From Psilocybe cubensis (lineage: Eukaryota), in the NCBI GenBank assembly GCA_017499595.2, contig CM039004.1:1-64000 (forward strand): a stretch of DNA of 64,000 nt, read 5' to 3'. Each line of letters opens with the position of its first letter. The first letter of the stretch is position 1. A program made the position numbers and the translations under genes. This document shows, piece after piece, positions 1 through 60,296 of the stretch. Below the pieces are notes generated by a model that was given only the letters and a program-made list of their open reading frames with translations, searched no databases and was not told where the DNA came from.

Positions 1-206
1 AACCCTAAACCCTAAACCCTAAACCCTAAACCCTAAACCCTAAACCCTAAACCCTAAACCCTAAACCCTAAACCCTAAACCCTAAACCCTAAACCCTAAA
101 CCCTAAACCCTAAACCCTAAACCCTAAACCCTAAACCCTAAACCCTAAACCCTAAAACCCTAAAACCCTAAACCCTAAACCCTAAACCCTAAACCCTAAA
201 CCCTAA
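1..206 (+). repeat. Terminal telomere tract (CCCTAAA)n, i.e. TTTAGGG on the minus strand
   Basis: About 29 near-perfect CCCTAAA units from base 1, with two CCCTAAAA variants near 150-170, joined directly to retroelement coding sequence. Confidence 0.97.
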
Positions 207-6234: not shown

Positions 6235-6310
6235 AAGAATAGCCACTGAAGAGTCTATAAAGACGAAAGGGCTGGCTGCTGATAACAATCAACAGCCCTC
6301 TGGCCTTCTT
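6235..6310 (+). ncRNA. Hammerhead ribozyme (alpha), cleavage after C6300
   Basis: Same core as 2750-2825. Confidence 0.9.
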
Positions 6311-6960: not shown

Positions 6961-7035
6961 AAGAATAGCCACTGAAGAGTCTATAAAGACGAAAGGGCTG
7001 GTTGTTGGGATCCCCCAACAGCCCTCTGGCCTTCT
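6961..7035 (+). ncRNA. Hammerhead ribozyme (stem III variant beta), cleavage after C7026
   Basis: CTGAAGA GTC..GAC GAAA GGGCTGGTTGTTGGGATCCCCCAACAGCCC TC TGGC. Confidence 0.9.
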
Positions 7036-7140
7036 TTCTATTTCAAACTCACAGTTTAAACTAGTCGCTCGCACCTCGCTTCGCTCGGTGCTCGCTCCCC
7101 CCCCTAAACCCAACGACTTTGCTATCACCCATCAGTTACC

Positions 7141-10100: not shown

Positions 10101-10674
10101 ACGAGTCGCAGAGCACGACGAATCCATTCTTGTACTTAAAACCAGATTTGATCAGGTATGGAATTGGTTTTCAGCTGCTGAACTTGGAAAGACTGTTACC
10201 GAGTACTGGTCGGCATGGTATGAACATGCCGAGAAAGGTCTGTATAGTGCAGACTCGTCCAGACCCCTTATCAAACCAGATCCAAATTACGTTCACGACC
10301 TCGATGATGTTCGCCCGGAGCTGTTCACACAGATCCTCGTGGACGGAGAAACTGAGTTCGTACCGGATTTGAGGAAGATAGGACTACTCGGAAGTCGTTG
10401 GATAGTATCGCGAAAGCGCAATACTAATCTTTTCGACCTTGCAAATGTGTGGAAGAAAACAGTCTTTCGTAAACTGGATGAAAACATCGCTGAAAAAGGT
10501 GGTGTTGTTCCCGAAACTCAAAACGTTAATGAAACTTATCATTCTGCTCTAGTTGAAGCTGCTGAACAGATAAGTATCGAAAGTGATAACGAGATAATAC
10601 TTCATAGACGTTCAATCTCACAAGAGAGGGAACATCCAGAATTCGGCAGAATATCCAAATCTTACAACCGATGA
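7141..10674 (+). CDS. PLE ORF1-RT polyprotein (1177 aa, unspliced frame)
   Basis: Helical/coiled-coil-like N-terminal ~300 aa followed by the PLE RT domain (DKNLG, GLAMG, YIDD); no endonuclease motif. Confidence 0.9.
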   Translation: MSSQYSAAFSRAMSPTLDALTQAVVNNTVFGVNDEAGRHNALIDELATVVIKKIAECRSVDQVIDCVFFDYRAALREFLLNLASWCDKRETVKASLERLESAVSAGNTPNRLKVKAPEFQLTKEFADAGSAEALRVSTTFSSARDAFQKAINDGAVQAKKDELAFWDDKCALNSCYEAAALIVKATYDDRKSSYKLPVFSTDNKGVRRIAEWVVSPQKKAECSALQTILPAIFSHIKQIVNMRHRALAIKIEKKRTTAATADVEMADATKPGPSIQSLIDKGLNARLKKLNLGSVGKKASFRNPSPIILDTNYYSNYPDFVWPEFVQGSSTSGQESWPFETQVVVDAFAEEASNQGFQQGRQQEEREGESSRQEQRSKGKGKGKSLDARSTVASFTSVRPAFPNSIPDDILTMTKTDAVSFVHLNTPISFLLAGQYRSSVHCSPGVSVPVDVANDLSLGLNYMFFTLPSKNLIMQAWNDFQRRIRWRIYFLFKEGMNKPFDPDYGVSSKKKEKPPMLPQFMELGLSMGRRYVIKTIASIPEEALKEMRKHAFSPKRDKIQKFLFDNNYVITMTDKNLGLAVSERDWILRNELNLLEDERNYEELEFEVAQEVMKSKMIQMQTLARTVEDEHLFLFELGLSRFFLSNVPEDGSSFKYPQFHGIPKIHKKPTGFRPIIPCHSVVFNPAAKFVSKELKPIIKSTPSIIHGTKDLFTRLSQLRIDPKRQWYFVTGDVVAFYPNIPLDLCIEIVCNMYEEWLLNASEENTALAHINPNSLENNLVKLGIFKRAIEIGNTQLITQHGSRYFRQKNGLAMGVADSPDLANLFGAHFEIKSKILDHPNVAFYGRYIDDCFAIVYAESEALALNLIKETIKFDGCVIEWAVSSSGCQFLDAFIFKESGKLHWKPFVKTGNNRERVPWVSHHPLDVKRGVYIGELSRLAVLCSTKEIYIGAIRDLNALYLMRGYPENLVMSWCKKNIQERWEKRFALRVAEHDESILVLKTRFDQVWNWFSAAELGKTVTEYWSAWYEHAEKGLYSADSSRPLIKPDPNYVHDLDDVRPELFTQILVDGETEFVPDLRKIGLLGSRWIVSRKRNTNLFDLANVWKKTVFRKLDENIAEKGGVVPETQNVNETYHSALVEAAEQISIESDNEIILHRRSISQEREHPEFGRISKSYNR
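8035..8095 (+). other. Predicted 61-nt GC-AG spliceosomal intron; splicing joins ORF1 to a Lys-rich tail ending at 8299
   Basis: AAG|GCAAGT donor, CTAAT branch candidates, CCCAG acceptor; phase-0 join is in frame with ORF 8099-8299. Same intron at 13178-13238 and 19257-19317. Confidence 0.7.
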
Positions 10675-11378
10675 AAAGAATACTAGCGCGTAAGGCGTAA
10701 AGCATTAGAAAAAAACCCTAACCGTAAGTATTCCTTGCTATAAAGTAACAAACATCTACTTACAAGCAACACTTTGGATTAAATAGCTAAACCTAAACCC
10801 TAAACCCTAAACCCTAAACCCTAACCTAACCCCAACCCTAAGCTAACTAAGTCTAACCTTAGTAGGAAGTAAGGTAGGCGTGTGAACTTCCGAACGGCAT
10901 GTGATTGTGAAGGGCCGGATCTAATTTAGTACATGGGAAAAGTTACTTAGTACTTCGGGAAAAGTTCCTTAGTACCGTGGAAACATTTTTGATGGACCGG
11001 ATCATGAACTGTCCAATTAAGATTCACAACAATCAATCATTCTATTGTTTGATTGTTAGGTAAGGACCCAGGTAAGCTATTTATACTCTAGACATGTGAA
11101 TATTCCCATGTCGCGGTTACTCGGAGCCACGTAACCAGAGTAATCTATATCCATGTGATTCACATCACAGTCAATAACCCACGATGTCAAAGAACAAAAG
11201 TGTTGGATCCACTTTTGACAGGTTACCATGTGCCACATCGACCCGTGACACTCTGTTCATCAGAGACCTGTCTAACTTGACAATAAACATTGACAGATTT
11301 GTGATAGTCGGTAAGATACATGACAGCTGCGCAGCATCACTTCACGCGCTGTCATCGGATGTCTAGAACATTCCTTCT

Positions 11379-11453
11379 AAGAATAGCCACTGAAGAGTCT
11401 ATAAAGACGAAAGGGCTGGTTGTTGGGATCCCCCAACAGCCCTCTGGCCTTCT
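11379..11453 (+). ncRNA. Hammerhead ribozyme (beta), cleavage after C11444
   Basis: Same core as 6961-7035. Confidence 0.9.
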
Positions 11454-12106
11454 TTCTATTTCAAACTCACAGTTTAAACTAGTCGCTCGCACCTCGCTTC
11501 GCTCGGTGCTCGCTCCCCCCCTAAACCCTAAACCCTAAACCCTAAACCCTAAGCCCTAACCTAACCCCAACCCTAAGCTAACTAAGTCTAACCTTAGTAG
11601 GAAGTAAGGTAGGCGTGTGAACTTCCGAAAGGCATGTGATTGTGAAGGGCCGGATCTAATTTAGTACATGGGAAAAGTTACTTAGTACCTCGGGAAAAGT
11701 TCCTTAGTACCGTGGAAACATTTTTGATGGACCGGATCATGAACTGTCCAATTAAGATTCACAACAATCAATCAATTGATTGTTAGGTAAGGACCCAGGT
11801 AAGCTATTTATACTCTTGACATGAGAATATTCCCATGTCACGGTTACTCGGAGCCACGTAACCAGAGTATTTTATATCCATGTGATTCACATCACAGTCA
11901 ATAACCCACGATGTCAAAGAACAAAAGTGTTGGATCCACTTTTGACAGGTTACCATGTGCCACATCGACCCGTGACACTCTGTTCATCAGAGATCTGTCT
12001 AACTTGACAATAAACATTGACAGATTTGTGATAGTCGGTAAGATACATGACAGCTGCGCAGCATCACTTCACGCGCTGTCATCGGATGTTCCAGAACATT
12101 CCTTCT

Positions 12107-12182
12107 AAGAATAGCCACTGAAGAGTCTATAAAGACGAAAGGGCTGGCTGCTGATAACAATCAACAGCCCTCTGGCCTTCTT
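12107..12182 (+). ncRNA. Hammerhead ribozyme (alpha), cleavage after C12172
   Basis: Same core as 2750-2825. Confidence 0.9.
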
Positions 12183-12283
12183 TCCATTTAACTCACAGTT
12201 TAAACAAGTCGCTCGCACCTCGCTTCGCTCGGTGCTCGCTCCCCCCCTAAACCCAACGACTTTGCTATTACCCAACAGCTACT

Positions 12284-15200
12284 ATGTCTTCCACTTACTC
12301 TGCTGCCTTCTCTCGTGCCATGTCCCCCACCCTGGACGCACTCACCCAGGCTGTCGTCAACAACACAGTTTTTGGCGTCAACGACGAAGCTGGCCGCCAC
12401 AACGCCCTCATCGACGAGTTGGCCACTGTCGTCATCAAGAAAATAGCTGAGTGCCGCTCCATTGACCAGATTGTAGACTGCGTCTTTTTTGACTATCGTG
12501 CTGCCCTTAGGGAGTTTCTCCTCAACCTCGCATCGTGGTGCGATAAGAGGGAAACAGTCAAGGCTAGCCTCGAGCGCCTTGAACTTGCCGTTAGCGCAGG
12601 CAACACCCCCAATCGCCTTCGGGTGAAGGCTCCCGAGTTCCAACTTACGAAGGAATTCGCGGATGCCGGGTCAGCGGAAGCTCTTCGAGTTTCCTCTACG
12701 TTCTCCACCGCTCGTGATGTCTTCCAAAAGGCAATCAACGACGGCGCCATTCAGGCGAAAAAGGACGAACTGGCCTTTTGGGATGATAAATGCGCACTCA
12801 ATAACTGTTATGAAGCTGCTGCCCTCATCGTTAAGACAACTTACGATGATCGCAAATCCAGCTATAAGCTCCCCGTTTTCTCTACAGACAACAAGGGAGT
12901 TCGTCGAATAACAGATTGGGTAGTGTCACCGCAGAAGAAGGCTGAATGCAGCGCATTGCAAACCATTTTGCCAGCCATCTTCTCTCATATCAAACAGATT
13001 GTCAACTTGCGCCACCGCGCTTTGGCAATCAAGATTGAGAAAAAGCGGTCGACTGCGGCAACAGCCGATGTCGAGATGGCCGATGCGACCAAACCAGGTC
13101 CATCGATTCAATCCCTTATTGATAAGGGCTTGAATGCACGTCTCAAGAAGCTCAACCTTGGATCTGTGGGCAAGAAGGCAAGTTCTCGTAACCCTTCACC
13201 CATAATTCTGGATACTAATTACTATTCTAATTACCCAGACTTTGTCTGGCCAGAATTCGTCCAAGGCTCCTCAACCTCAGGCCAAGAAAGCTGGCCCTTC
13301 GAAATTCAAACCCTCGTCGACGCCTTCGCAGAAGAAGCCCCAAACCAAGGCTTCCAACAAGGTCGACAACAAGAAGAAAGGGAAGGGGAGAGCTCCCGTC
13401 AAGAACGATCCAAAGGGAAAGGGAAAGGCAAGAGCCTAGACGCGCGGTCTAATGTAGTACCTTTTACGTCGGTAAGACCCGCCTTCCCCAACTCTATTCC
13501 TGACGATATACTCACCATGACTAAAACAGACGCAGTTTCTTTTGTACACTTACATACGCCGATCTCATTCTTGTTGGCTGGCCAGTATCGTAGTAGTGTA
13601 CACTGTAGTCCTGGTGTGGTGGTCCCTGTAGATATAGCAAATGATTTGTCACTCGGACTCAATTATATGTTTTTTACTCTGCCTTCTCAAAGTCTGATCA
13701 TGCAAGCATGGAATGATTTTCAACGAAGAATAAGATGGCGTATCTATTTTTTGTTTAAGGAAGGCATGAACAAACCTTTTGATCCAGATTACGGAGTAAG
13801 CTCAAAAAAGAAAGAGAAACCTCCAGTATTACCGCAATACATGGAACTTGGCCTTTCGATGGGACGTCGGTACGTGCAACGCACGATCGCAAGTATCCCG
13901 GAAGAAGCCCTTACGGAGATGCGAAAGCACGCGTTCTCTCCTAAAAGGGACAAGATCCGTAAGTTTCTTATCGATAACAACTATGTTATTACGATGACAG
14001 ATAAGAATCTTGGCCTCGCGGTGTCTGAACGCGACTGGATATTAAGGAATGAGCTCAATCTTCTTGAAGATGAACGTAACTATGAAGAGTTAGAATTCGA
14101 AGTTGCGCAAGAAGTAATGAAGAGCAAAATGATCCAGATGCAAACTCTTGCACGTACCGTCGAAGATGAACATCTGTTTCTATTTGAACTTGGGTTGTCT
14201 CGATTCTTTCTATCGAATGTACCGGAAGACGGATCATCGTTCAAGTATCCTCAATTTCATGGTATACCTAAAATCCACAAAAAACCTACTGGATTTAGAC
14301 CCATAATTCCGTGTCACTCTGTAGTATTTAATCCTGCAGCCAAGTTTGTATCAAAAGAGCTTAAGCCGATTATTAAATCGACTCCTTCAATCATTCACGG
14401 AACGAAGGATCTCTTTACGAGATTAAGCCAATTGCGTATAGACCCCAAACGACAATGGTATTTTGTCACCGGGGATGTAGTTGCTTTCTATCCCAATATT
14501 CCGTTGGACTTGTGCATCGAAATCGTTTGTAATATGTACGAGGAATGGTTACTCAACGCTTCGGAAGAAAACACTGCATTAGCCCATATTAATCCAAATT
14601 CGTTAGAGAATAACTTGGTTAAATTGGGCATCTTTAAACGTGCTATCGAGATTGGCAATACGCAATTGATAACACAACATGGGTCTAGATATTTTAGACA
14701 AAAAAATGGCCTCGCAATGGGCGTCGCGGATTCTCCGGACCTTGCTAACCTCTTTGGAGCCCATTTTGAAATAAAGTCAAAAATCTTAGACCACCCAAAC
14801 GTGGCCTTCTATGGAAGGTACATCGACGATTGTTTCGCAATTGTTTACGCCGAGTCCGAAGCACTTGCACTTAATCTTATTAAAGAAACAATAAAGTTCG
14901 ATGGTTGTGTTATCGAATGGGCTGTTTCCTCGTCGGGATGTCAATTTCTCGATGCTTTCATATTCAAGGAGTCTGGAAAACTTCATTGGAAGCCATTTGT
15001 CAAGACAGGAAACAACCGAGAACGAGTTCCATGGGTATCACATCATCCTTTGGACGTCAAACGTGGCGTCTACATTGGAGAGTTATCCAGGTTAGCCGTG
15101 CTATGTAGTACCAAGGAAATCTACATCGGAGCAATTAGAGACCTTAACGCTCTCTATTTGATGCGCGGTTATCCCGAAAACCTAGTCATGTCTTGGTGTA

Positions 15201-15814
15201 AGAAGAATATACAAGAACGTTGGGAAAAGCGATTCGCTTTACGAGTCGCAGAGCACGACGAATCCATTCTTGTACTTAAAACCAGATTTGATCAGGTATG
15301 GAATTGGTTTTCAGCTGCTGAACTTGGAAAAACTGTTACCGAGTACTGGTCGGCATGGTATGAACATGCCGAGAAAGGTTTGTATAGTGCAGACTCGTCC
15401 AGACCCCTTATCAAACCAGATCCAAATTACGTTCACGACCTCGATGATGTTCGCCCGGAGCTGTTCACACAGATCCTCGTGGACGGAGAAACTGAGTTCG
15501 TACCGGATTTGAGGAAGATAGGACTACTCGGAAGTCGTTGGATAGTATCGCGAAAACGCAATACTAATCTTTTCGACCTTACAAATGTGTGGAAGAAAAC
15601 AGTCTTTCGTAAACTGGATGAAGACATCGCTGAAAAAGGTGGTGTTGTTCCCGAAACTCAAAACGTTAATGAAACTTATCATTCTGCTTTAGTTGAAGCT
15701 GCTGAACAGATAAGTATCGAAAGTGATAACGAGATAATACTTCATAGACGTTCAATCTCACAAGAGAGGGAACATCCAGAATTCGGCAGAATATCCAAAT
15801 CTTACAACCGATGA
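12284..15814 (+). CDS. PLE ORF1-RT polyprotein (1176 aa)
   Basis: Intact ORF, paralog of 7141-10674. Confidence 0.9.
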   Translation: MSSTYSAAFSRAMSPTLDALTQAVVNNTVFGVNDEAGRHNALIDELATVVIKKIAECRSIDQIVDCVFFDYRAALREFLLNLASWCDKRETVKASLERLELAVSAGNTPNRLRVKAPEFQLTKEFADAGSAEALRVSSTFSTARDVFQKAINDGAIQAKKDELAFWDDKCALNNCYEAAALIVKTTYDDRKSSYKLPVFSTDNKGVRRITDWVVSPQKKAECSALQTILPAIFSHIKQIVNLRHRALAIKIEKKRSTAATADVEMADATKPGPSIQSLIDKGLNARLKKLNLGSVGKKASSRNPSPIILDTNYYSNYPDFVWPEFVQGSSTSGQESWPFEIQTLVDAFAEEAPNQGFQQGRQQEEREGESSRQERSKGKGKGKSLDARSNVVPFTSVRPAFPNSIPDDILTMTKTDAVSFVHLHTPISFLLAGQYRSSVHCSPGVVVPVDIANDLSLGLNYMFFTLPSQSLIMQAWNDFQRRIRWRIYFLFKEGMNKPFDPDYGVSSKKKEKPPVLPQYMELGLSMGRRYVQRTIASIPEEALTEMRKHAFSPKRDKIRKFLIDNNYVITMTDKNLGLAVSERDWILRNELNLLEDERNYEELEFEVAQEVMKSKMIQMQTLARTVEDEHLFLFELGLSRFFLSNVPEDGSSFKYPQFHGIPKIHKKPTGFRPIIPCHSVVFNPAAKFVSKELKPIIKSTPSIIHGTKDLFTRLSQLRIDPKRQWYFVTGDVVAFYPNIPLDLCIEIVCNMYEEWLLNASEENTALAHINPNSLENNLVKLGIFKRAIEIGNTQLITQHGSRYFRQKNGLAMGVADSPDLANLFGAHFEIKSKILDHPNVAFYGRYIDDCFAIVYAESEALALNLIKETIKFDGCVIEWAVSSSGCQFLDAFIFKESGKLHWKPFVKTGNNRERVPWVSHHPLDVKRGVYIGELSRLAVLCSTKEIYIGAIRDLNALYLMRGYPENLVMSWCKKNIQERWEKRFALRVAEHDESILVLKTRFDQVWNWFSAAELGKTVTEYWSAWYEHAEKGLYSADSSRPLIKPDPNYVHDLDDVRPELFTQILVDGETEFVPDLRKIGLLGSRWIVSRKRNTNLFDLTNVWKKTVFRKLDEDIAEKGGVVPETQNVNETYHSALVEAAEQISIESDNEIILHRRSISQEREHPEFGRISKSYNR

Positions 15815-16517
15815 AAAGAATACTAGCGCGTAAGGCGTAAAGCATTAGAAAAAAACCCTAACCGTAAGTATTCCTTGCTACAAAGTAACAAACATCTACT
15901 TACAAGCAACACATTGGATTAAATAGCTAAACCTAAACCTAAACCCTAAACCCTAAACCCTAAGCCCTAACCTAACCCCAACCCTAAGCTAACTAAGTCT
16001 AACCTTAGTAGGAAGTAAGGTAGGCGTGTGAACTTCCGAAAGGCATGTGATTGTGAAGGGCCGGATCTAATTTAGTACATGGGAAAAGTTACTTAGTACC
16101 TCGGGAAAAGTTCCTTAGTACCGTGGAAACATTTTTGATGGACCGGATCATGAACTGTCCAATTAAGATTCACAACAATCAATCAATTGATTGTTAGGTA
16201 AGGACCCAGGTAAGCTATTTATACTCTTGACATGAGAATATTCCCATGTCACGGTTACTCGGAGCCACGTAACCAGAGTATTTTATATCCATGTGATTCA
16301 CATCACAGTCAATAACCCACGATGTCAAAGAACAAAAGTGTTGGATCCACTTTTGACAGGTTACCATGTGCCACATCGACCCGTGACACTCTGTTCATCA
16401 GAGATCTGTCTAACTTGACAATAAACATTGACAGATTTGTGATAGTCGGTAAGATACATGACAGCTGCGCAGCATCACTTCACGCGCTGTCATCGGATGT
16501 TCCAGAACATTCCTTCT

Positions 16518-16593
16518 AAGAATAGCCACTGAAGAGTCTATAAAGACGAAAGGGCTGGCTGCTGATAACAATCAACAGCCCTCTGGCCTTCTT
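16518..16593 (+). ncRNA. Hammerhead ribozyme (alpha), cleavage after C16583
   Basis: Same core as 2750-2825. Confidence 0.9.
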
Positions 16594-17257
16594 TCCATTT
16601 AACTCACAGTTTAAACAAGTCGCTCGCACCTCGCTTCGCTCGGTGCTCGCTCCCCCCCTAAACCCTAAAACCTAAACCCTAAACCCTAAACCCTAAACCC
16701 TAACCTAACCCCAACCCTAAGCTAACTAAGTCTAACCTTAGTAGGAAGTAAGGTAGGCGTGTGAACTTCCGAACGGCATGTGATTGTGAAGGGCCGGATC
16801 TAATTTAGTACATGGGAAAAGTTACTTAGTACTTCGGGAAAAGTTCCTTAGTACCGTGGAAACATTTTTGATGGACCGGATCATGAACTGTCCAATTAAG
16901 ATTCACAACAATCAATCATTCTATTGTTTGATTGTTAGGTAAGGACCCAGGTAAGTTATTTATACTCTAGACATGTGAATATTCCCATGTCGCGGTTACT
17001 CGGAGCCACGTAACCAGAGTAATCTATATCCATGTGATTCACATCACAGTCAATAACCCACGATGTCAAAGAACAAAAGTGTTGGATCCACTTTTGACAG
17101 GTTACCATGTGCCACATCGACCCGTGACACTCTGTTCATCAGAGACCTGTCTAACTTGACAATAAACATTGACAGATTTGTGATAGTCGGTAAGATACAT
17201 GACAGCTGCGCAGCATCACTTCACGCGCTGTCATCGGATGTCTAGAACATTCCTTCT

Positions 17258-18262
17258 AAGAATAGCCACTGAAGAGTCTATAAAGACGAAAGGGCTGGTT
17301 GTTGGGATCCCCCAACAGCCCTCAAGTACTCGTCCTCTCCCAAACTCCTGCCGCTTGTGCCTTCCCAACTCATCCGGGAGCCCTTTCGTCACTGATCTTG
17401 CCCTTGACTCGGGGACGTTTCATCGACATGTTGGCTGCCTCACGGCAAGCGGGGCCCTTTTTCTTTCACTCGCTCACGCCTTCTATGTTGGGTTACGGAG
17501 GTCATACAAACTCGTTTTAGTCTAGCTGCGGGGATATCCAGCTATGATGACTTTGTAATTCGAGGGCGCGCAGTTCTTCAATGGGTATGGACATCAGGTG
17601 AGAGTACACTGGGGGTTGTCAGGACCAGCTCTGCTGGATACGCTCCTGGCAAGTCGGTTGCAGCCGGCGACACTACCGAATTGCTGGGACGTCCTAAAGC
17701 TTGTGGGTACCGCCGACCGCTGGAAACAGCCTAGGCACCGGTGGCGACCGGGTATGGTAACAATCCCCAAGATTCAGCGAAAGCTGGAATGGATAATCAG
17801 CAGCGAATCCGTAACGGTCACGCCGACGGAAGCGTTCAACGACTAGGTGGTAGTGGGGTCTTCGGATCTTAAGATATAGTCTTGGGAGTGGGGAAACCCA
17901 CATCTGGTATCTAAACCGCGCCTCGCTGCTTACGAGGACGGCCCGAAGTCCAGAACCGCTTAAAACGCGGGTGACCCGGCCTCCCCTTAGTAAAGGGAGT
18001 TAACACAAGGATGGACAAATAGTTCGTCGCCGGAAATGAACCTGTGGCTGTAATGGCTGATGTGGCGCCCCTTGGTAAAGGGCTTAAAGGGTATTAGCCT
18101 GCCATGTCCAATGGCATGAGAGTGTCCCTTGGTAAAGGACTTAATAGGCAATAGCCTGCTCTTTTGTCATGAGCGGTATGTAGTGATCGTTTGCCTGTAC
18201 GGTAGCGCCCATTGCTTGCACTGGTCCACGCCCGTAAAAAATCACGAGCCGCTGGCTACTTT
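17258..18262 (+). ncRNA. Hammerhead ribozyme (beta) split by a group I intron between the U and C of its cleavage triplet
   Basis: 5' part CTGAAGA...GAAAGGGCTG...CAGCCCT ends at 17322; 3' part CTGGCTACTTTCC resumes at 18252; joining them reproduces 22604-22680. Confidence 0.88.
17323..18251 (+). ncRNA. Group I self-splicing intron (IC1-like), no homing endonuclease ORF evident
   Basis: P GAATTGCTGGGA (17678-17689), Q AATCAGCAGC (17795-17804), R GTTCAACGACTAG (17834-17846), S TAAGATATAGTC (17870-17881); P3 CACTACC/GGTAGTG; P8 with UUCG loop; P9 GTGGGGAAACCCAC; 5' exon ends in U, intron ends in G; IGS GGGGTTGT (17612-17619) pairs with exon ACAGCCCT. Confidence 0.88.
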
Positions 18263-18362
18263 CCATTTAACTCCCAGTTTAAACTAGTCGCTCGCACCTC
18301 GCTTCGCTCGGTGCTCGCTCCCCCCCTAAACCCAACGACTTTGCTATTATCCATCAGCCACT

Positions 18363-21300
18363 ATGTCATCTCAATACTCTGCTGCTTTCTCTCGTGCCAT
18401 GTCCCCCACCCTGGACGCACTCACCCAGGCCGTCGTCAACAACACCGTTTTCGGCGTCAACGATGAAGCAGGCCGCCATAACGCTCTGATCGACGAGCTG
18501 GCCACTGTGGTCATCAAAAAAATAGCTGAGTGCCGCTCCGTTGACCAAGTCATAGACTGCGTCTTTTTTGACTATCGTGCTGCCCTTAGGGAGTTTCTCC
18601 TCAACCTCGCATCGTGGTGCGATAAGAGGGAAACAGTCAAGGCTAGCCTCGAGCGCCTTGAATCTGCCGTTAGCGCAGGCAACACGCCCAATCGCCTTAA
18701 GGTGAAGGCACCCGAGTTCCAACTTACGAAGGAATTCGCGAATGCCGGGTCAGCGGAGGCTCTTCGAGTCTCCACTACGTTCTCTACCGCTCGTGACGCC
18801 TTCCAAAAGGCAATTAACGACGGCGCCATTCAGGCGAAAAAGGACGAGCTGACTTTTTGGGATGATAAATGCGCACTCAACTCTTGCTACGAAGCTGCTG
18901 CCCTCATCGTTAAGGCAACTTACGATGATCGCAAATCCAGCTACAAGCTCCCTGTTTTCTCTACAGATAACAAGGGAGTTCGACGTATAGCAGAGTGGGT
19001 AGTGTCTCCGCAAAAGAAAGCCGAATGCAGTGCGCTGCAAACCATACTGCCGGCGATCTTTTCTCACATCAAACAAATTGTCAACATGCGCCACCGCGCT
19101 TTGGCAATTAAGATTGAGAAAAAGCGGACGACTGCGGCAACAGCCGATGTCGAGATGGCCGACGCGACCAAACCAGGTCCGTCGATTCAATCCCTTATTG
19201 ATAAGGGCTTGAATGCACGTCTCAAGAAGCTCAACCTTGGATCTGTGGGCAAGAAGGCAAGTTTTCGTAACCCTTCACCCATAATTCTGGATACTAATTA
19301 CTACTCTAATTACCCAGACTTTGTCTGGCCAGAATTCATCCAAGGCTCCTCAACCTCAGGCCAAGAAAGCTGGCCCTTCGAAACCCAAGTCGTCGTCGAC
19401 GCCTTCGCAACGCAAGCCTCAAACCAAGGCTTCCAACAAGGTCGACAACAAGAAGAAAGGGAAGGGGAGAGCTCCCGTCAAGAACGATCCAAAGGGAAAG
19501 GGAAAGGCAAGAGCCTAGATGCGCGGTCTAATGTAGTACCTTTTACGTCGGTGAGACCCGCCTTCCCCAACTCTATTCCTGACGATATACTCACCATGAC
19601 TAAAACAGACGCAGTTTCTTTCGTACACTTACATACTCCAATATCATTCTTGTTGGCTGGCCAGTATCGTAGTAGTGTACATTGTAGTCCTGGTGTTTCT
19701 GTCCCTGTTGATGTAGCAAACGATCTCTCTCTCGGACTTAATTATATGTTTTTCACTCTGCCTTCTAAAAGTCTGATCATGCAAGCATGGAATGATTTCC
19801 AACGAAGAATAAGATGGCGTATCTATTTTTTGTTTAAGGAAGGCATGAATAAACCTTTTGATCCAGATTATGGAGTAAGCTCAAAAAAGAAAGAGAAACC
19901 TCCTGTATTACCGCAATATATGGAACTTGGCCTTTCGATGGGACGTCGGTACGTGCAACGCACGATCGCAAGTATCCCGGAAGAAGCCCTTACGGAGATG
20001 CGAAAGCACGCGTTCTCTCCTAAAAGGGACAAGATCCGTAAGTTTCTTATCGATAACAACTATGTTATTACGATGACAGATAAGAATCTTGGCCTCGCGG
20101 TGTCTGAACGCGACTGGATATTAAGGAATGAGCTCAATCTTCTTGAAGATGAACGTAATTACGAAGAGTTAGAATTCGAAGTTGCGCAAGAAGTTATGAA
20201 GAGCAAAATGATTCAGATGCAAACGCTCGCACGTACTGTCGAAGATGAACATCTGTTTCTATTTGAACTTGGGTTGTCTCGATTCTTTCTATCGAATGTA
20301 CCGGAAGACGGATCATCGTTCAAGTATCCTCAATTTCATGGTATACCTAAAATCCACAAGAAACCTACTGGATTTAGGCCCATAATTCCGTGTCACTCTG
20401 TAGTATTTAATCCTGCAGCCAAGTTTGTATCAAAAGAGCTTAAGCCGATTATTAAATCGACTCCTTCAATCATACACGGAACGAAGGATCTCTTTACGAG
20501 ATTAAGCCAATTGCGTATAGACTCCAAAAGACAATGGTATTTTGTCACTGGAGATGTAGTTGCTTTCTATCCCAATATTCCGTTGGACTTGTGCATCGAA
20601 ATCGTTTGTAGTATGTACGAGGAATGGTTACTCAACGCTTCGGAAGAAAACACTGCATTAGCCCATATTAATCCAAATTCGTTAGAGAATAACTTGGTTA
20701 AATTGGGCATCTTTAAACGTGCTATCGAGATTGGCAATACGCAATTGATAACACAACATGGGTCTAGATATTTTAGACAAAAAAATGGCCTCGCAATGGG
20801 CGTCGCGGATTCTCCGGACCTTGCTAACCTCTTTGGAGCCCATTTTGAAATAAAGTCAAAAATCTTAGACCACCCAAACGTGGCCTTCTATGGAAGGTAC
20901 ATCGACGATTGTTTCGCAATTGTTTACGCCGAGTCCGAAGCACTTGCACTTAATCTTATTAAAGAAACAATAAAGTTCGATGGTTGTGTTATCGAATGGG
21001 CTGTTTCCTCGTCGGGATGTCAATTTCTCGATGCTTTCATATTCAAGGAGTCTGGAAAACTTCATTGGAAGCCTTTTGTCAAGACAGGAAACAACCGAGA
21101 ACGAGTTCCATGGGTATCACATCATCCTTTGGACGTCAAACGTGGCGTCTACATTGGAGAGTTATCCAGGTTAGCCGTGCTATGTAGTACCAAGGAAATC
21201 TACATCGGAGCAATTAGAGACCTTAACGCTCTCTATTTGATGCGCGGTTATCCCGAAAACCTAGTCATATCTTGGTGTAAGAAGAATATACAAGAACGTT

Positions 21301-21893
21301 GGGAAAAGCGATTCGCTTTACGAGTCGCAGAGCACGACGAATCCATTCTTGTACTTAAAACCAGATTTGATCAGGTATGGAATTGGTTTTCAGCTGCTGA
21401 ACTTGGAAAAACTGTTACCGAGTACTGGTCGGCATGGTATGAACATGCCGAGAAAGGTTTGTATAGTGCAGACTCGTCCAGACCCCTTATCAAACCAGAT
21501 CCAAATTACGTTCACGACCTCGATGATGTTCGCCCGGAGCTGTTCACACAGATCCTCGTGGACGGAGAAACTGAGTTCGTACCGGATTTGAGGAAGATAG
21601 GACTACTCGGAAGTCGTTGGATAGTATCGCGAAAACGCAATACTAATCTTTTCGACCTTGCAAATGTGTGGAAGAAAACAGTCTTTCGTAAACTGGATGA
21701 AGACATCGCTGAAAAAGGTGGTGTTGTTCCCGAAACTCAAAACGTTAATGAAACTTATCATTCTGCTTTAGTTGAAGCTGCTGAGCAGATAAGTATCGAA
21801 AGTGATAACGAGATAATACTTCATAGACGTTCAATCTCACAAGAGAGGGAACATCCAGAATTTGGCAGAATATCCAAATCTTACAACCGATGA
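18363..21893 (+). CDS. PLE ORF1-RT polyprotein (1176 aa)
   Basis: Intact ORF, paralog of 7141-10674. Confidence 0.9.
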   Translation: MSSQYSAAFSRAMSPTLDALTQAVVNNTVFGVNDEAGRHNALIDELATVVIKKIAECRSVDQVIDCVFFDYRAALREFLLNLASWCDKRETVKASLERLESAVSAGNTPNRLKVKAPEFQLTKEFANAGSAEALRVSTTFSTARDAFQKAINDGAIQAKKDELTFWDDKCALNSCYEAAALIVKATYDDRKSSYKLPVFSTDNKGVRRIAEWVVSPQKKAECSALQTILPAIFSHIKQIVNMRHRALAIKIEKKRTTAATADVEMADATKPGPSIQSLIDKGLNARLKKLNLGSVGKKASFRNPSPIILDTNYYSNYPDFVWPEFIQGSSTSGQESWPFETQVVVDAFATQASNQGFQQGRQQEEREGESSRQERSKGKGKGKSLDARSNVVPFTSVRPAFPNSIPDDILTMTKTDAVSFVHLHTPISFLLAGQYRSSVHCSPGVSVPVDVANDLSLGLNYMFFTLPSKSLIMQAWNDFQRRIRWRIYFLFKEGMNKPFDPDYGVSSKKKEKPPVLPQYMELGLSMGRRYVQRTIASIPEEALTEMRKHAFSPKRDKIRKFLIDNNYVITMTDKNLGLAVSERDWILRNELNLLEDERNYEELEFEVAQEVMKSKMIQMQTLARTVEDEHLFLFELGLSRFFLSNVPEDGSSFKYPQFHGIPKIHKKPTGFRPIIPCHSVVFNPAAKFVSKELKPIIKSTPSIIHGTKDLFTRLSQLRIDSKRQWYFVTGDVVAFYPNIPLDLCIEIVCSMYEEWLLNASEENTALAHINPNSLENNLVKLGIFKRAIEIGNTQLITQHGSRYFRQKNGLAMGVADSPDLANLFGAHFEIKSKILDHPNVAFYGRYIDDCFAIVYAESEALALNLIKETIKFDGCVIEWAVSSSGCQFLDAFIFKESGKLHWKPFVKTGNNRERVPWVSHHPLDVKRGVYIGELSRLAVLCSTKEIYIGAIRDLNALYLMRGYPENLVISWCKKNIQERWEKRFALRVAEHDESILVLKTRFDQVWNWFSAAELGKTVTEYWSAWYEHAEKGLYSADSSRPLIKPDPNYVHDLDDVRPELFTQILVDGETEFVPDLRKIGLLGSRWIVSRKRNTNLFDLANVWKKTVFRKLDEDIAEKGGVVPETQNVNETYHSALVEAAEQISIESDNEIILHRRSISQEREHPEFGRISKSYNR

Positions 21894-22603
21894 AAAGAAT
21901 ACTAGCGCTTAAGGCGTAAAGCATTAGAAAAAAACCCTAACCGTAAGTATTCCTTGCTATAAAGTAACAAACATCTACTTACAAGCAACACATTGGATTG
22001 AATAGCTAAACCTAAACCTAAACCCTAAACCCTAAACCCTAAACCCTAACCTAACCCCAACCCTAAGCTAACTAAGTCTAACCTTAGTAGGAAGTAAGGT
22101 AGGCGTGTGAACTTCCGAACGGCATGTGATTGTGAAGGGCCGGATCTAATTTAGTACATGGGAAAAGTTACTTAGTACTTCGGGAAAAGTTCCTTAGTAC
22201 CGTGGAAACATTTTTGATGGACCGGATCATGAACTGTCCAATTAAGATTCACAACAATCAATCATTCTATTGTTTGATTGTTAGGTAAGGACCCAGGTAA
22301 GTTATTTATACTCTAGACATGTGAATATTCCCATGTCGCGGTTACTCGGAGCCACGTAACCAGAGTAATCTATATCCATGTGATTCACATCACAGTCAAT
22401 AACCCACGATGTCAAAGAACAAAAGTGTTGGATCCACTTTTGACAGGTTACCATGTGCCACATCGACCCGTGACACTCTGTTCATCAGAGACCTGTCTAA
22501 CTTGACAATAAACATTGACAGATTTGTGATAGTCGGTAAGATACATGACAGCTGCGCAGCATCACTTCACGCGCTGTCATCGGATGTCTAGAACATTCCT
22601 TCT

Positions 22604-22680
22604 AAGAATAGCCACTGAAGAGTCTATAAAGACGAAAGGGCTGGTTGTTGGGATCCCCCAACAGCCCTCTGGCTACTTTC
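22604..22680 (+). ncRNA. Hammerhead ribozyme (beta; intron-less allele of the interrupted copy), cleavage after C22669
   Basis: Core intact; shares the TGGCTACTTTCC flank with 18253 onward. Confidence 0.88.
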
Positions 22681-22767
22681 CATTTAACTCCCAGTTTAAA
22701 CTAGTCGCTCGCACCTCGCTTCGCTCGGTGCTCGCTCCCCCCCTAAACCCTAAACCCTAAACCCTAA

Positions 22768-23779
22768 ACCCGAAACTCAAAACGTTAATGAAACTTATCA
22801 TTCTGCTTTAGTTGAAGCTGCTGAACAGATAAGTATCGAAAGTGATAACGAGATAATACTTCATAGACGTTCAATCTCACAAGAGAGGGAACATCCAGAA
22901 TTCGGCAGAATATCCAAATCTTACAACCGATGAAAAGAATACTAGCGCGTAAGGCGTAAAGCATTAGAAAAAAACCCTAACCGTAAGTATTCCTTGCTAC
23001 AAAGTAACAAACATCTACTTACAAGCAACACATTGGATTAAATAGCTAAACCTAAACCTAAACCCTAAACCCTAAACCCTAAGCCCTAACCTAACCCCAA
23101 CCCTAAGCTAACTAAGTCTAACCTTAGTAGGAAGTAAGGTAGGCGTGTGAACTTCCGAAAGGCATGTGATTGTGAAGGGCCGGATCTAATTTAGTACATG
23201 GGAAAAGTTACTTAGTACCTCGGGAAAAGTTCCTTAGTACCGTGGAAACATTTTTGATGGACCGGATCATGAACTGTCCAATTAAGATTCACAACAATCA
23301 ATCAATTGATTGTTAGGTAAGGACCCAGGTAAGCTATTTATACTCTTGACATGAGAATATTCCCATGTCACGGTTACTCGGAGCCACGTAACCAGAGTAT
23401 TTTATATCCATGTGATTCACATCACAGTCAATAACCCACGATGTCAAAGAACAAAAATGTTGGATCCACTTTTGACAGGTTACCATGTGCCACATCGACC
23501 CGTGACACTCTGTTCATCAGAGATCTGTCTAACTTGACAATAAACATTGACAGATTTGTGATAGTCGGTAAGATACATGACAGCTGCGCAGCATCACTTC
23601 ACGCGCTGTCATCGGATGTTCCAGAACATTCCTTCTAAGAATAGCCACTGAAGAGTCTATAAAGACGAAAGGGCTGGCTGCTGATAACAATCAACAGCCC
23701 TCTGGCCTTCTTTCCATTTAACTCACAGTTTAAACAAGTCGCTCGCACCTCGCTTCGCTCGGTGCTCGCTCCCCCCCTA
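22768..23779 (+). mobile_element. PLE family A copy A6, heavily 5'-truncated (last ~55 codons, 3' UTR and pLTR)
   Basis: Starts at CCCGAAACTCAAAAC after a telomeric tract; stop codon at ~22933; alpha-type pLTR. Confidence 0.92.
23637..23712 (+). ncRNA. Hammerhead ribozyme (alpha), cleavage after C23702
   Basis: Same core as 2750-2825. Confidence 0.9.
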
Positions 23780-24540: not shown

Positions 24541-27500
24541 TCAACCGGTCGTACTCCATCCCACAAAAATATTTGTGGTTGTATTTCTAAATCCAGGTAT
24601 GAGTACATAAAGAGTCGACAGAAAAAACACCCTCACCCCCAAGAATTGCATAGCCAAATCACAGAATCCAGACGGAGGTCTCCATCTATATTTACGATCC
24701 AGTTTATGCCAGATATAGTGAAGTAACCTAATCTTCGTTAGGTTCTCTTGTGTTGGGATTGCGTAAGGCATGCATTGGAGCAATGATAAGAAATGTTTAT
24801 CTCGGAAGTCCATCCAGTATACTCTACCACCTTGGTCCAAGCTGCCATAGTGCTTTGATACAAGTACATTGAGAAGAAATGTGGCAAGATGGGGATACCA
24901 ATCCGAGGCAACAATGGGCAAAAAAGGGTGTCGGGTACCCAGTAATTGGTTAATCTCCAACACCGAGTGGAAGAGACGAATCCAGGTGAGCCACAACTCA
25001 CTGGTACCACCTCCAGTTCTTATATTCTCCGAAAGAATGTATTTTCCGTCGAGCGTCGGAGATATACCCATAATGTGGTGGTTGTACTGCCTTCCAGAAT
25101 CTTTGGCAGTAAGGAAGTACGACGAGTGTTCGATGTACAGTGATATGAGTGCGGAAAATGTGGTTTTAGCAGCCGCTTCGAATTTTACAATAAGCATACT
25201 GTCGTGTTCCTCGAGTACATGCCTATTTGTTCCGGTCTATGACCCGATAAAATTAGTGTACGTGTTGAGGGTAACGACTGAATAAAAAATACCAATTGTC
25301 TGTGAAGCCAACCCAATGAAGCGTTTGCAAATTGCGGCAAGTATTGGGGAAGCTTAGGCAGCTGTGGATGAATCAGAATATGTAGTATAGTCATCCTGTG
25401 AGAATTTTGGAGATATTCTCTTGAACGGATATCAGATCGTGCTGGATTATGCAAGAAGCGGACCACTTTGTTCAATGGGGAATCCAGCGTAGCTTCCGTC
25501 CCGTTGAAGAGTTGATTAAGAAGTTCGATCACACGAACCAGACCTGGAGTTTCCCACTCTGCTACTAGGGCTGGAGGTAGGTATGTCCTCGATACTTTGT
25601 CAATCTCCTTTTCAAATACGTCGAGAATGATTTCCACGTGTCCCCGATCTTTGTAACAGAAGATATTGACAATACCGTGCATGTCTTGGAGCTCTGATAC
25701 AATGGCATCATTCGTAATATGCATTTCTGCGCCTATGTCCAGGATGTCAAAAGATGATGTATCCCTCCGCCAGCTTTGCCTAACAAGATACCCGAGAATG
25801 GGCCCGTCAAGAGAGGTAGCCTCGAGAACCTGCTGGGCTGAGATGGTCAATGCCAACATGACAGGACGTTGAAGTGATTGAAGTAGATCCAGTAGAGGCT
25901 TTAACCCTTGCGCTGGTGTCGATTCCCTCCAACTCTGATCCCGTAGTATACATCTCTGGAACGTTGAAAGGAGCCACAATGTGTGCTTTGATCGAGGTAT
26001 TTTTCTGTCTGCTTCGGATAATACCCCTTCAAGTGCTTCGTGTAGATATTTGAGCTCTTGGATAATAATATCCATGTCTGAGCTTGGAAGTTCCACGAGG
26101 CTATATAGGATAGTTGAAACAGTTGGAAAAGAAAAACCTAAGTGATATTGTGACGGTCCAATACTGTAGTAATTGAATATCAATAATTAAAACCAATATT
26201 CCGTCACGAAAGGTATACCGATTAATTATTCCATCAATGTCAGGATTGACGTGTAGCAATTCTATCAAGTGCCGTATAATAACACAAAATGCATGAATCA
26301 AGGTGGACCATTCGTTGACCAGAAATTTCCCGGATCTAGAAGAATCTTTTATAAATTCTTCAAACGATAAGTGATGGAACGAAAGCCATGGTGTATCATA
26401 TCTCGGGGTACCAAACGTTGGTATCAGTCTTTGTAAAAGTGGAGGACATTTGGATTCTGTTGTGCAAATCAAAGATCGCATGGATCGCAAAATTTGGCGC
26501 AGCTCCGACGGAGTAACATTAAAAACGAGCTCCATGACACTTTCCGAGTTGCTGTAAGGGGTGCACAAAATGGCACCCAGAACACGTCTAAGTGTGTCCC
26601 ATCGTGGATACGATGACAAAATGGAGGCATACAGCTGGTCTAGTTCGGAGAATGCCAGAGCGTCATGAGGACCAGGTCTGATCAATATTCGAAGCTGTTC
26701 GAGGGGGTCACAGTGAAGGGAATCACCAATGAATTTTACGACGGTGGATGCATAAACAAATTGTCCAGAGGCAGACCTAACGAATCGGTCGATGAGGTGG
26801 TCCTCGGGCCATGGCCGAGGGACAGAATGCATTATTTCGATGTTTTCTTCATATATCCTATTAAATTCACTGCGTAGGTAGGTTTTTATTCCAGCGTCGG
26901 CTTCAAGGTCGTCTCGCAAAGAAACGCGTTTCACGATAGAGCTGAAACACCCGGTCTCGAACACATCGGCTATCCAGTACTCTGGACGACTGATAATCAG
27001 GAAGCGCAGTGGGATGCGATGCTGAATAATAGCATTCGCAATGGTGGACAAGATTGCGACCTGCATACGCTTCTCTCCAGAGCACTCGTCCAGGCCGTCA
27101 ATGATGACCACTGGGTGGTGGGCGGGCTAATTGCGCAATTTGGTGAGAGGTCTGATAATAAGATTTTGAAGTTGAATATTGATCAATTTGGTGGGAAGTG
27201 TAGGATTCTCCTGCATGACGGTATCGAGTATGGCACGGTAATCGGGGAAATTGATGGCAAGCTCGTGAGCAATGGTAGAAAATAGCTTGTTCCCGTCTCC
27301 GCGTCCAGGAGCTCCCTTTGCAAAGAAAAAGCTCGAGCCATATCTGCAATCAGCAGAACGCTCTTGTAACATCATGGCAATGGAGTGTCCGATTGCTGAT
27401 TTTCCGGAACCTGCGGGACCATAGAGCCACAGGGCTTGCTTCTCAGGAGCTGGGTTGTCAATCCACTCCATGATGGTCTCAATAATCCTCTCCCGAGTAC

Positions 27501-36909: not shown

Positions 36910-37161
36910 GAATAAGTCAGCAAGGCTTTTCTCACATCCTGAACTTAAAATAGAAGGAAACAGTTGGGCTGGTCAGGCCCGATCAATCTCAAGATCAGAT
37001 CTAAGATCCAATCGAGATTAAGATCTTTGCACACTCATCTAGATCGCCAAAAATAGGCGTTATCTTTCAGAGCAGCATGGGGGCAAGTATTGTCCCTAGG
37101 CCAGTGCCGTCGACAGCAAGGCTAACAAGCCTGCGTCGTTATGGCTACGGGGCCCATAACC

Positions 37162-60276: not shown

Positions 60277-60296
60277 AACCCTAAAACCCTAAACCC

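What the first reader, a model, noticed from the sequence alone, without database searches (positions are those of the whole stretch)
16695..22745. One element has an intron-plus 5' pLTR and an intron-minus 3' pLTR with the same private SNPs
Seen in sequence: only the two pLTRs of A5 share GGTAAGTTATTT (others have GGTAAGCTATTT or GTTAAGCTATTT) and TGGCTACTTTCC...CTCCCAG, yet only the upstream one has the intron, and the downstream one is the precise exon junction. Inference: precise gain or loss happened on an RNA intermediate (splicing or reverse splicing followed by reverse transcription) and recently, which implies an active intron.
Basis: partly seen in the sequence, partly recalled or inferred. 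Interest (0 to 1): 0.75.

Follow-up and report, generated by a model that had tools for sequence, protein, structure and literature searches.

The report
Self-splicing intron inside a telomeric retrotransposon
One repeat of a telomere-building retrotransposon carries a self-splicing group I intron at its hammerhead ribozyme's cut site while the twin repeat is its exact spliced form, putting such an intron in nuclear DNA outside the ribosomal RNA genes.

Summary
The window starts in a CCCTAAA telomere tract, followed by a head-to-tail array of endonuclease-less Penelope-like retroelements.

- **The element.** It spans 16674-22743. Its upstream pLTR holds a 929-nt insert (17323-18251). Removing the insert gives a 724/724 match to the downstream pLTR.
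- **Markers.** Both pLTRs carry a T (16956, 22302) found in none of the 8 other window copies and in none of four public runs.
- **The insert.** It is a group I intron (Rfam RF00028, 70.9 bits). The 5' exon ends in U, the intron ends in G, and an 8-bp guide pairs with the exon.
- **Position.** It lies within 1 nt of the cleavage site of the pLTR's type-I hammerhead ribozyme.
- **Relatives.** Homologous introns occur in 3 of 80 divergent metagenomic relatives of the element, at different leader sites.
- **Other strains.** Reads from one strain show about three intron copies, the precise intron-less junction, and a head-to-tail intron-intron junction.

Best reading: spliced and unspliced template RNAs were both reverse-transcribed. 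DNA-level gene conversion is not excluded. Reviews state that all known nuclear group I introns lie in rDNA, and I found no report of one in a retrotransposon.

The parts
1..206 (+). Terminal tract of CCCTAAA (TTTAGGG-type) telomere repeats. The array of elements lies proximal to it.
   Evidence: 22 units at 3-156 and 5 units at 166-200..
16674..17322 (+). Upstream pLTR, the part 5' of the intron. It begins with degenerate telomere-like repeats. The private T is at 16956.
17263..17323 (+). The 5' portion of the hammerhead in the upstream pLTR: helix I 5' strand (TAGCCA), CUGAAGA core, helix II, GAAA, long helix III, U16.1 (17322) and C17. The intron cuts it off from its helix I 3' strand.
17323..18251 (+). 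Group I intron of 929 nt. It begins with C and ends with G. There is no homing-endonuclease-like ORF.
   Evidence: RF00028, 70.9 bits, core 17607-17903..
17612..17619 (+). Internal guide sequence GGGGUUGU. It pairs 8/8 with the 5' exon ACAGCCCU (17315-17322), with a G.U pair at the splice site. P1 therefore has a loop of about 289 nt.
18252..18326 (+). Upstream pLTR, the part 3' of the intron: C17, the helix I 3' strand UGGCUA, and the leader.
18363..21893 (+). ORF of 1176 aa, the reverse transcriptase of an endonuclease-less Penelope-like element.
22020..22743 (+). Downstream pLTR. It is the exact ligated-exon form. The private T is at 22302.
22609..22675 (+). Intact type-I hammerhead, with predicted cleavage after C22669. 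Helix I is 6 bp here, against 4 bp in the other eight parsed window copies.
   Evidence: RAGATH-1 hammerhead model, 29.1 bits, E 0.011, below the gathering score..
22744..22768 (+). Short telomere-repeat tract that joins the element to an older 5'-truncated copy (22769-23777).

Best explanation
**The element.** It is a telomere-associated Penelope-like retroelement without an endonuclease (Coprina/Athena type).
- It is added to chromosome ends by reverse transcription of its RNA.
- Each pLTR carries a type-I hammerhead ribozyme.

**The intron.** A group I self-splicing intron, IC1-like by recall, sits between U16.1 and C17 of that hammerhead.
- Its guide sequence pairs with the 3' strand of hammerhead helix III.
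- The unspliced RNA therefore cannot form the hammerhead. Splicing rebuilds it exactly.

**How the asymmetry arose.** In each retrotransposition cycle, both pLTRs of a new copy are made from one RNA source.
- For this element, the RNA copied into the proximal (3') pLTR had already self-spliced.
- The RNA copied into the distal (5') pLTR had not.
- The asymmetry is therefore a recent intron loss by ordinary forward self-splicing, fixed by the element's own reverse transcriptase.

**Shown:**
- The identity and boundaries of the intron.
- Its position relative to the hammerhead.
- The identity of the two pLTRs.
- The privacy of the T marker.
- The presence of the intron in other strains and in related elements.

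**Inferred:**
- That splicing happens.
- That both pLTRs come from one RNA source per cycle.
- The direction of the change (loss).
For: **Intron identity and boundaries**
- Rfam places a full-length group I core at 17607-17903 (70.9 bits against a gathering score of 50).
- Excising 17323-18251 gives a 724/724 match to the 3' pLTR. The boundaries are U|C...G|C.
- The guide GGGGUUGU lies directly 5' of P2 and pairs with all 8 terminal exon bases, with G.U at the splice site. 103 of 20000 shuffles did as well.
- The five homologous intron cores share a structure of 71 predicted pairs, 33 of which show compensatory double changes.

**Hammerhead**
- It was parsed in 9 of 10 window pLTRs and in 32 of 80 related loci, and helix I co-varies between them.
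- Fungal telomeric PLEs are reported to carry type-I hammerheads with a large helix III in their pLTRs (PMC4209133, passages read).

**One source per cycle**
- The three full-length elements have 0, 0 and 1 differences between their own pLTRs.
- Different elements differ by 12-40.

**Timing**
- The T at 16956/22302 is absent from the 8 other window copies and from all four runs.
- The intron, at this same site, is present in all four runs. It is therefore older than the T marker.
Against: - No RNA evidence for splicing was obtained.
- The elements are mosaics of each other. Recombination, at the DNA or the RNA level, is therefore frequent and could move the intron or the T marker between copies.
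- The model of one RNA source per cycle is inferred only from identity patterns.
- The published in-vitro work on PLE reverse transcription concerns an endonuclease-bearing animal element (PMC11167929, main text read).
- If forward splicing were the only process, the intron should be lost quickly. Its persistence needs either re-gain or some advantage.
- The 289-nt P1 loop is unusually large.
Confidence: 0.55

Rival explanations
1. RNA-level gain. A free intron RNA transcribed from another pLTR reverse-spliced into the intron-less RNA that was then copied into the 5' pLTR.
For: - The guide-exon pairing needed for reverse splicing is present.
- X19 DNA reads contain a head-to-tail intron-intron junction (18251 joined to 17323; 9 reads, 7 starts). 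Reverse splicing into an already occupied 5' splice site would give this.
- The sister elements L031 and L028 are 89% identical in the ORF and 94% in the pLTR. They carry homologous introns at different leader sites, each with the other's site uninterrupted.
- In the array, the intron-plus pLTR is the later, distal addition.
Against: - Forward splicing is the intron's normal and far more frequent reaction.
- The intron already existed at this exact site in related copies, so loss needs no extra event.
- The tandem junction has other possible origins.
Confidence: 0.17
2. A DNA-level event. Ectopic gene conversion or recombination between subtelomeric pLTR copies added or removed the intron after insertion, or spread the T marker between an intron-plus and an intron-minus copy.
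For: - Intron-less and intron-bearing pLTRs with the same flanks coexist. A conversion tract would therefore leave a precise junction.
- The elements are clearly mosaic. This element matches element 6377-11521 almost perfectly in the pLTR (1 difference before the cut site) but differs at 105 of 3690 aligned positions in the interior. Its similarity to the two other elements switches along its length.
- In X19, the TGGCTAC flank is joined to other helix III variants (41 reads and about 10-18 reads).
Against: - It needs a donor identical over the whole tract, and a tract that spares or includes position 16956 exactly as required.
- It does not explain the head-to-tail intron junction.
- It does not explain the different insertion sites in L031 and L028.
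- Mosaicism can equally arise from template switching by the reverse transcriptase.
Confidence: 0.2
3. Template-switch capture. The reverse transcriptase ran off the 5' end made by hammerhead cleavage, copied a free excised intron RNA, then jumped to the hammerhead-made 3' end of another element RNA. This placed the intron exactly at the cut site.
For: - Because of the one-base ambiguity, the insert can be placed exactly at the hammerhead's scissile bond.
- The head-to-tail intron junction could also come from template jumping.
Against: - It leaves the 8-bp guide-exon pairing and the U/G boundary rule as coincidences.
- It requires an extra C at the intron's 3' end and no added G at its 5' end.
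- The related introns lie about 4, 14-16 and 40-75 nt from their hammerhead cut sites, not at them.
Confidence: 0.05
4. An assembly chimera. The intron-plus and intron-minus pLTRs belong to different elements that were joined wrongly in a repetitive array.
For: - The array is highly repetitive.
- No read set from the source strain could be shown to span the element.
- None of the four laid runs carries the T marker.
Against: - The private T occurs in both pLTRs and nowhere else in the window.
- The intron within its pLTR flanks is seen independently: one 988-nt X1 contig covers 17294-18280, and raw X19 reads cover it.
- The flanking junctions follow the same pattern as those of the two other full-length elements.
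Confidence: 0.03

Closest known systems
Nuclear group I introns of rDNA (IC1 type, such as the Tetrahymena LSU intron)
   Same: - A conserved P3-P9 core.
- J8/7 and P7 motifs, and a P5abc-like extension (by recall).
- P1 with a U.G pair at the 5' splice site.
- A terminal G.
- No endonuclease gene.
   Different: - The host is the pLTR of a telomeric retrotransposon, not an rRNA gene.
- Two reviews state that all known nuclear group I introns are in rDNA (abstracts of PMC3679873 and PMC8395846, seen in the listing).
- The P1 loop is about 289 nt.
- The 5' exon strand of P1 is part of another ribozyme.
Spliceosomal introns in the pLTR or 5' UTR of Penelope-like elements
   Same: - An intron in the leader or pLTR of a retroelement that replicates through RNA.
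[quoted passage not shown]
   Different: The intron here is a self-splicing ribozyme, not a spliceosomal intron. The original 2003 report was not read.
Type-I hammerhead ribozymes of fungal telomere-associated PLEs
   Same: - Located in the pLTR.
- Open helix I, short helix II and a long, stable helix III (PMC4209133).
- The same architecture was parsed in 32 of 80 related loci.
   Different: In this upstream pLTR the hammerhead is split by a 929-nt intron, and would be rebuilt only by splicing.
Reverse-splicing spread of group I introns in fungal rDNA
   Same: - Guide-exon pairing chooses the site.
- Homologous introns occur at different sites.
- No endonuclease gene (PMC1299323, abstract only).
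   Different: - The RNA target here belongs to an element that encodes its own reverse transcriptase.
- The step from RNA back to DNA, which is the weak point of the rDNA model, is therefore built in.
Twin-ribozyme group I introns (Naegleria, Didymium)
   Same: Two ribozymes on one transcript whose reactions can affect each other (PMC1464144, abstract only).
   Different: The second ribozyme here is a hammerhead in the exon, not a GIR1 domain inside the intron. There is no endonuclease gene.
Mobile group II introns (retrohoming)
   Same: It works in a similar way: a self-splicing intron whose spread depends on reverse transcription of RNA.
   Different: - The ribozyme class is different.
- The reverse transcriptase is encoded by the host element, not by the intron.
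- It is not a member of this family.

Membership tests
Group I intron | Conserved catalytic core (P3-P9), scored by a covariance model | tested here: met
   RF00028 scores 70.9 bits against a gathering score of 50, E 5.6e-16, covering model positions 1-253. 33 of the 71 predicted pairs show compensatory changes among the five homologues.
Group I intron | The 5' exon ends in U, paired with a G of an internal guide sequence just 5' of P2 | tested here: met
   T17322 pairs with G17612 in an 8-bp P1. 103 of 20000 shuffles reached 8 bp.
Group I intron | The last intron base is G | tested here: met
   G18251, using the boundary choice 17323-18251. The alternative boundary choice would end in C.
Group I intron | Self-splicing activity | not testable with these tools
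   No RNA data were laid and no assay was possible.
Nuclear group I introns as known so far | Located in an rRNA gene | tested here: not met
   The flanks are a pLTR between telomere repeats and a reverse-transcriptase ORF. The only Rfam match in the window at gathering level is the intron itself, so no rRNA.
Endonuclease-mobile (homing) group I intron | An intron-encoded homing endonuclease gene | tested here: not met
   The four ORFs of 60 aa or more that overlap the intron have no Pfam match at E <= 0.01. Degenerate remnants were not searched for.
Endonuclease-less Penelope-like element (Coprina/Athena type) | A PLE-type reverse transcriptase without a GIY-YIG endonuclease | tested here: met
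   - 411 homologues were found, and the best 120 were listed. The only families in their precomputed Pfam columns are RVT_1, DUF8422 and HTH_animal.
- The nearest Atlas clusters are rotifer proteins with the same families.
- My own Pfam scan of the ORF gave no family at E <= 0.01, so no GIY-YIG either.
- Clade assignment by phylogeny was not done.
Endonuclease-less Penelope-like element (Coprina/Athena type) | Head-to-tail copies at a chromosome end, joined by reverse-complement telomere repeats and flanked by pLTRs | tested here: met
Hammerhead ribozyme, type I | CUGANGA...GAAA core, helices I-III, and a U-H cleavage dinucleotide | tested here: met
   A structural parse succeeded in 9 of 10 window pLTRs and in 32 of 80 loci, with helix I covariation.
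Hammerhead ribozyme, type I | Reaches the Rfam gathering score | tested here: not met
   The best match is the RAGATH-1 hammerhead model at 29.1 bits, against a gathering score of 56.3, E 0.011 in an 801-nt search.
Hammerhead ribozyme, type I | Self-cleavage | not testable with these tools
   One fungal PLE hammerhead (from Serpula) is reported to cleave (PMC4209133, figure legend). This one has not been tested.

The most novel reading that the evidence does not exclude
A lineage of nuclear group I introns has left rDNA and lives in the ribozyme-bearing leader of telomere-building retrotransposons.
- It uses the host element's reverse transcriptase to fix both spliced and reverse-spliced RNA states in DNA. 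This would explain site hopping, tandem intron copies and mixed pLTRs.
- In this element it also acts as a splice-dependent switch. The hammerhead can form, and cut the RNA, only after the intron has removed itself. Two ribozymes and a reverse transcriptase would then jointly decide which RNAs become new telomeric DNA.
Probability: 0.3. Interest if true: 0.92.

Novelty: new variant of a known kind. Interest (0 to 1): 0.85.

Why it matters
**An exception to a long-standing rule.** Reviews state that nuclear group I introns occur only in rRNA genes. A structurally intact family of them in a retrotransposon would be a clear exception.

**A test system for an untested pathway.** Spread of group I introns by reverse splicing followed by reverse transcription has been inferred from phylogeny but never caught in nature. 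Here the target RNA belongs to an element that supplies the reverse transcriptase. This element appears to record both RNA states side by side in DNA. That makes the pathway directly testable with RT-PCR, in-vitro splicing and long reads of chromosome ends.

**Two ribozymes on one RNA.** The overlap with the hammerhead cut site offers a natural case of two ribozymes competing for the same RNA strand.

Tried and rejected
- **Whole genome.** None is held for this window. Genome-wide mapping of pLTRs and a search of the organism's rDNA for related introns were therefore impossible.
- **Earlier findings.** None exist for this place or these words.
- **First MAFFT alignment.** It misplaced the insert.
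- **First boundary guess.** Mine was 11 nt off. Both slips were corrected.
- **Pfam on the 1176-aa ORF.** It gave no family at E <= 0.01. The reverse-transcriptase assignment rests on homologues.
- **Unconstrained guide-exon scan.** It produced many chance matches of 7-12 bp. Only the pairings at independently fixed boundaries are used: this window, and L031, where 1650 of 20000 shuffles did as well, which is weak.
- **A 10-bp alternative P1 inside the insert (exon end 17554).** Rejected, because 5 of its 10 pairs are G.U.
- **A P10-like pairing.** 17600-17606 (GAGAGUA) pairs with 3' exon 18257-18263 (UACUUUC). It is offset from the splice site, so it is only a lead.
- **Boundaries of the two L078 introns and the L028 intron.** They could not be fixed to the base.
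- **A profile of the five cores.** It found no further intron in the 80 loci or the window at E <= 1.
- **A covariance model of my own.** Not built, because the alignment exceeds the size limit.
- **Key papers not available.** The 2007 PNAS paper on telomeric PLEs is not held. The 2017 Terminon paper did not appear in a title search. Either could mention introns in fungal elements.
- **Supplements.** No supplementary files were opened. Those of PMC4209133 and PMC8557442 may list fungal pLTR sequences.


Full report
**Setting**

The window opens with 27 units of CCCTAAA. A head-to-tail array of one retroelement family follows on the + strand, with short telomere-repeat tracts at each junction:

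| Coordinates | Copy |
|---|---|
| 206-2892 | 5'-truncated |
| 2907-6377 | 5'-truncated |
| 6377-11521 | full length |
| 11530-16658 | full length |
| 16674-22743 | full length; the element in the finding |
| 22769-23777 | 5'-truncated |
| 57918-60276 | a further truncated copy |

- Each full-length copy is pLTR, then one TAAACCC unit, then a 29-nt leader, then a 1176-aa ORF, a 3' UTR, degenerate telomere-like repeats and a second pLTR.
- The ORF has 411 homologues. Those listed carry RVT_1, DUF8422 and HTH_animal as precomputed Pfam families. The nearest Atlas clusters are rotifer proteins with the same families.
- My own Pfam scan found nothing at E <= 0.01, so no endonuclease domain either.
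- Together with the telomeric position, this fits the endonuclease-less Penelope-like elements described in PMC8557442 (passages read).
- The closest named proteins (99% identity) are annotated as Psilocybe cubensis. The window also holds a copia-like element, an NLR-like gene and a G-alpha-like gene. This is nuclear DNA, probably from an agaric fungus.

**The observation**

- Ten pLTR copies are present. Only the two of this element read GGTAAGTTATTT. Only these two read TGGCTACTTTCC...CTCCCAG.
- The upstream copy has a 929-nt insert. With 17323-18251 removed (or 17324-18252, since one C is ambiguous), it equals the downstream copy at 724 of 724 positions.

**What the insert is**

- Rfam places a complete group I intron core at 17607-17903 (70.9 bits, gathering score 50).
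- With the 17323-18251 boundaries, the 5' exon ends in U and the intron ends in G.
- Directly 5' of P2, GGGGUUGU (17612-17619) pairs with all eight terminal exon bases ACAGCCCU, with G.U at the splice site. Only 103 of 20000 shuffles of the guide region reached 8 bp.
- P1 therefore encloses an unusually large loop of about 289 nt.
- No ORF overlapping the intron has a Pfam match.

**Where it sits**

- The pLTR contains a type-I hammerhead: helix I (TAGCCA / UGGCUA), CUGAAGA, a short helix II, GAAA, a long helix III, then U-C and the cut.
- Rfam supports this only below its gathering score (29.1 bits, E 0.011).
- The same architecture parses in 9 of 10 window pLTRs and in 32 of 80 related loci, with co-varying helix I.
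- It also matches what is published for fungal telomeric PLEs (PMC4209133, passages read).
- The intron lies between U16.1 and C17. By the ambiguous C it can equally be placed exactly at the scissile bond.
- Its P1 uses the 3' strand of helix III. The unspliced RNA therefore cannot form the hammerhead, and splicing restores it.

**Other strains (one call, four runs, laid on 16700-19000)**

- **The intron is present in all four runs.**
  - In X1, one 988-nt contig spans 17294-18280. It has two differing letters and one gap.
  - In raw X19 reads, intron depth is about 80-115. The pLTR is at about 1200-1600 and the ORF start at about 330-390.
  - About 36x per copy is my estimate from the letters read and a 45-Mb genome. 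On that estimate X19 has roughly three intron copies.
- **Intermediate-frequency intron variants in X19 agree with several copies.**
  - 17867 T>C: 32 of 83 reads.
  - 18018 A>C: 55 of 112 reads.
  - 18221 C>T: 28 of 99 reads.
- **The private T.** All four runs read C at 16956, so the T is private to this window's element.
- **The intron-less junction.** The precise junction 17322|18252 occurs in X19 (99 reads), X8 and X10, but not in any X1 contig. The TGGCTAC flank is therefore an older allele.
  - The same words, or close variants of them, follow the hammerhead in relatives L011, L001 and L015.
  - It lengthens helix I from 4 to 6 bp.
- **A head-to-tail junction.** X19 has 9 reads from 7 start points that run from the last intron base straight into the first. 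Homologous recombination does not readily produce this. Reverse splicing into an occupied site, or template jumping, does.

**Relatives**

- A scan of metagenome contigs with an alignment of 29 ORFs gave 80 loci.
- The window's intron finds homologues in three of them (nhmmer).
- Rfam scores them as follows:

| Locus | Intron cores | Rfam score |
|---|---|---|
| L078 | two | 72.8 and 76.5 bits |
| L031 | one | 34.2 bits, E 2.5e-5 |
| L028 | one | 31.6 bits, E 1.6e-4 |

- Both sub-threshold matches (L031 and L028) cover the full length of the model.
- A profile of the five cores finds no others.
- All of these introns lie between the pLTR hammerhead and the ORF. About 20 of the 80 loci contain that leader at all (my hand count).
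- The insertion sites differ:
  - L031: about 4 nt after the cut. Its exon ends in U, its intron ends in G, and it has a 6-bp guide.
  - First L078 intron: about 14-16 nt after the cut.
  - L028: about 40-75 nt after the cut.
  - Second L078 intron: near the ORF start.
- L031 and L028 are sister elements (89% identical in the ORF, 94% in the pLTR). Their introns are homologous but sit at different sites, and each element has the other's site uninterrupted.
- In L078 the 3' pLTR again lacks the intron that the 5' pLTR has. However, those two pLTRs are only 83% identical.
- The five cores share 71 predicted pairs, 33 of them with compensatory changes.

**Mechanism**

- The three full-length elements have 0, 0 and 1 differences between their own pLTRs, against 12-40 between elements.
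- If the 5' and 3' pLTRs were inherited separately, they would have diverged as the lineages did. I therefore infer that both are made from one RNA source in each cycle.
- The intron at this site predates the private T, yet the T now sits on one intron-plus and one intron-minus copy. A gain, a loss or an exchange therefore followed the T mutation.
- My odds:

| Explanation | Probability |
|---|---|
| Forward self-splicing of part of the template RNA | 0.55 |
| Gain by reverse splicing | 0.17 |
| DNA-level conversion | 0.20 |
| Template-switch capture at hammerhead-made ends | 0.05 |
| Assembly chimera | 0.03 |

- DNA-level conversion is a real rival because the elements are mosaics.

**Novelty**

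- Two reviews state that all known nuclear group I introns are in rDNA (abstracts seen in the listing).
- Full-text searches found no report of a group I intron inside such an element. They combined "group I intron" with:
  - Penelope-like or Penelope
  - pLTR
  - Terminon
  - telomere, retrotransposon, ribozyme and basidiomycete together (no papers)
- Judged from titles and abstract openings, and from passages read in two of the listed papers, the co-mentions concern other matters, such as the GIY-YIG nuclease.
- Two key papers could not be read, and no supplements were opened.

Noticed in passing
window 1-206, and all element junctions: The telomere unit is the 7-mer CCCTAAA (TTTAGGG type), although the nearest named proteins are from an agaric fungus. 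Relatives L078 and L079 carry CCCTAA. L031 carries CCCTAAA-like units.
   Followed up: partly
L078:7232-8076 and L078:about 8270-9200: - A divergent telomeric PLE (reverse transcriptase 31% identical) has two group I introns between its 5' hammerhead and the ORF.
- The second lies downstream of a candidate start codon at 8169, so it may interrupt coding sequence.
- Its guide region (GGGGCUUGU) is homologous to the window's guide.
   Followed up: partly
L031:444-1512 and L028:about 745-1810: Sister elements carry homologous group I introns at different leader sites. This looks like transposition of the intron to a new site.
   Followed up: partly
window 17323/18251, in run X19: Nine DNA reads (7 start points) join the intron's last base to its first base. 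This indicates either a tandem intron pair or a DNA copy of an intron circle.
   Followed up: no
window 17600-17606 and 18257-18263: GAGAGUA in the intron is complementary to UACUUUC in the 3' exon. The match is 7 bp only with the TGGCTAC allele. The same allele extends hammerhead helix I from 4 to 6 bp.
   Followed up: partly
window 16674-22743 compared with 6377-11521 and 11530-16658: The elements are mosaics. Similarity to one or the other relative switches in blocks of a few hundred bases, so recombination or template switching is frequent.
   Followed up: partly
window 60232-63651: A second, divergent PLE family with an ORF of 1139 aa read from stop to stop. It starts right after the pLTR of the truncated copy at 57918-60276.
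   Followed up: no
window 31621-36972 (-): An uninterrupted 1783-aa reading frame whose sequence looks copia-like to me (not scanned against a family library). An NLR-like gene fragment lies at 26101-27126 (-), matching NPHP3_N.
   Followed up: no
L001 and L014: The ORF matches span about 830-920 nt more than the protein needs, and they enclose a pLTR/hammerhead-like stretch. These are probably partial tandem copies. No group I intron was found in them.
   Followed up: no
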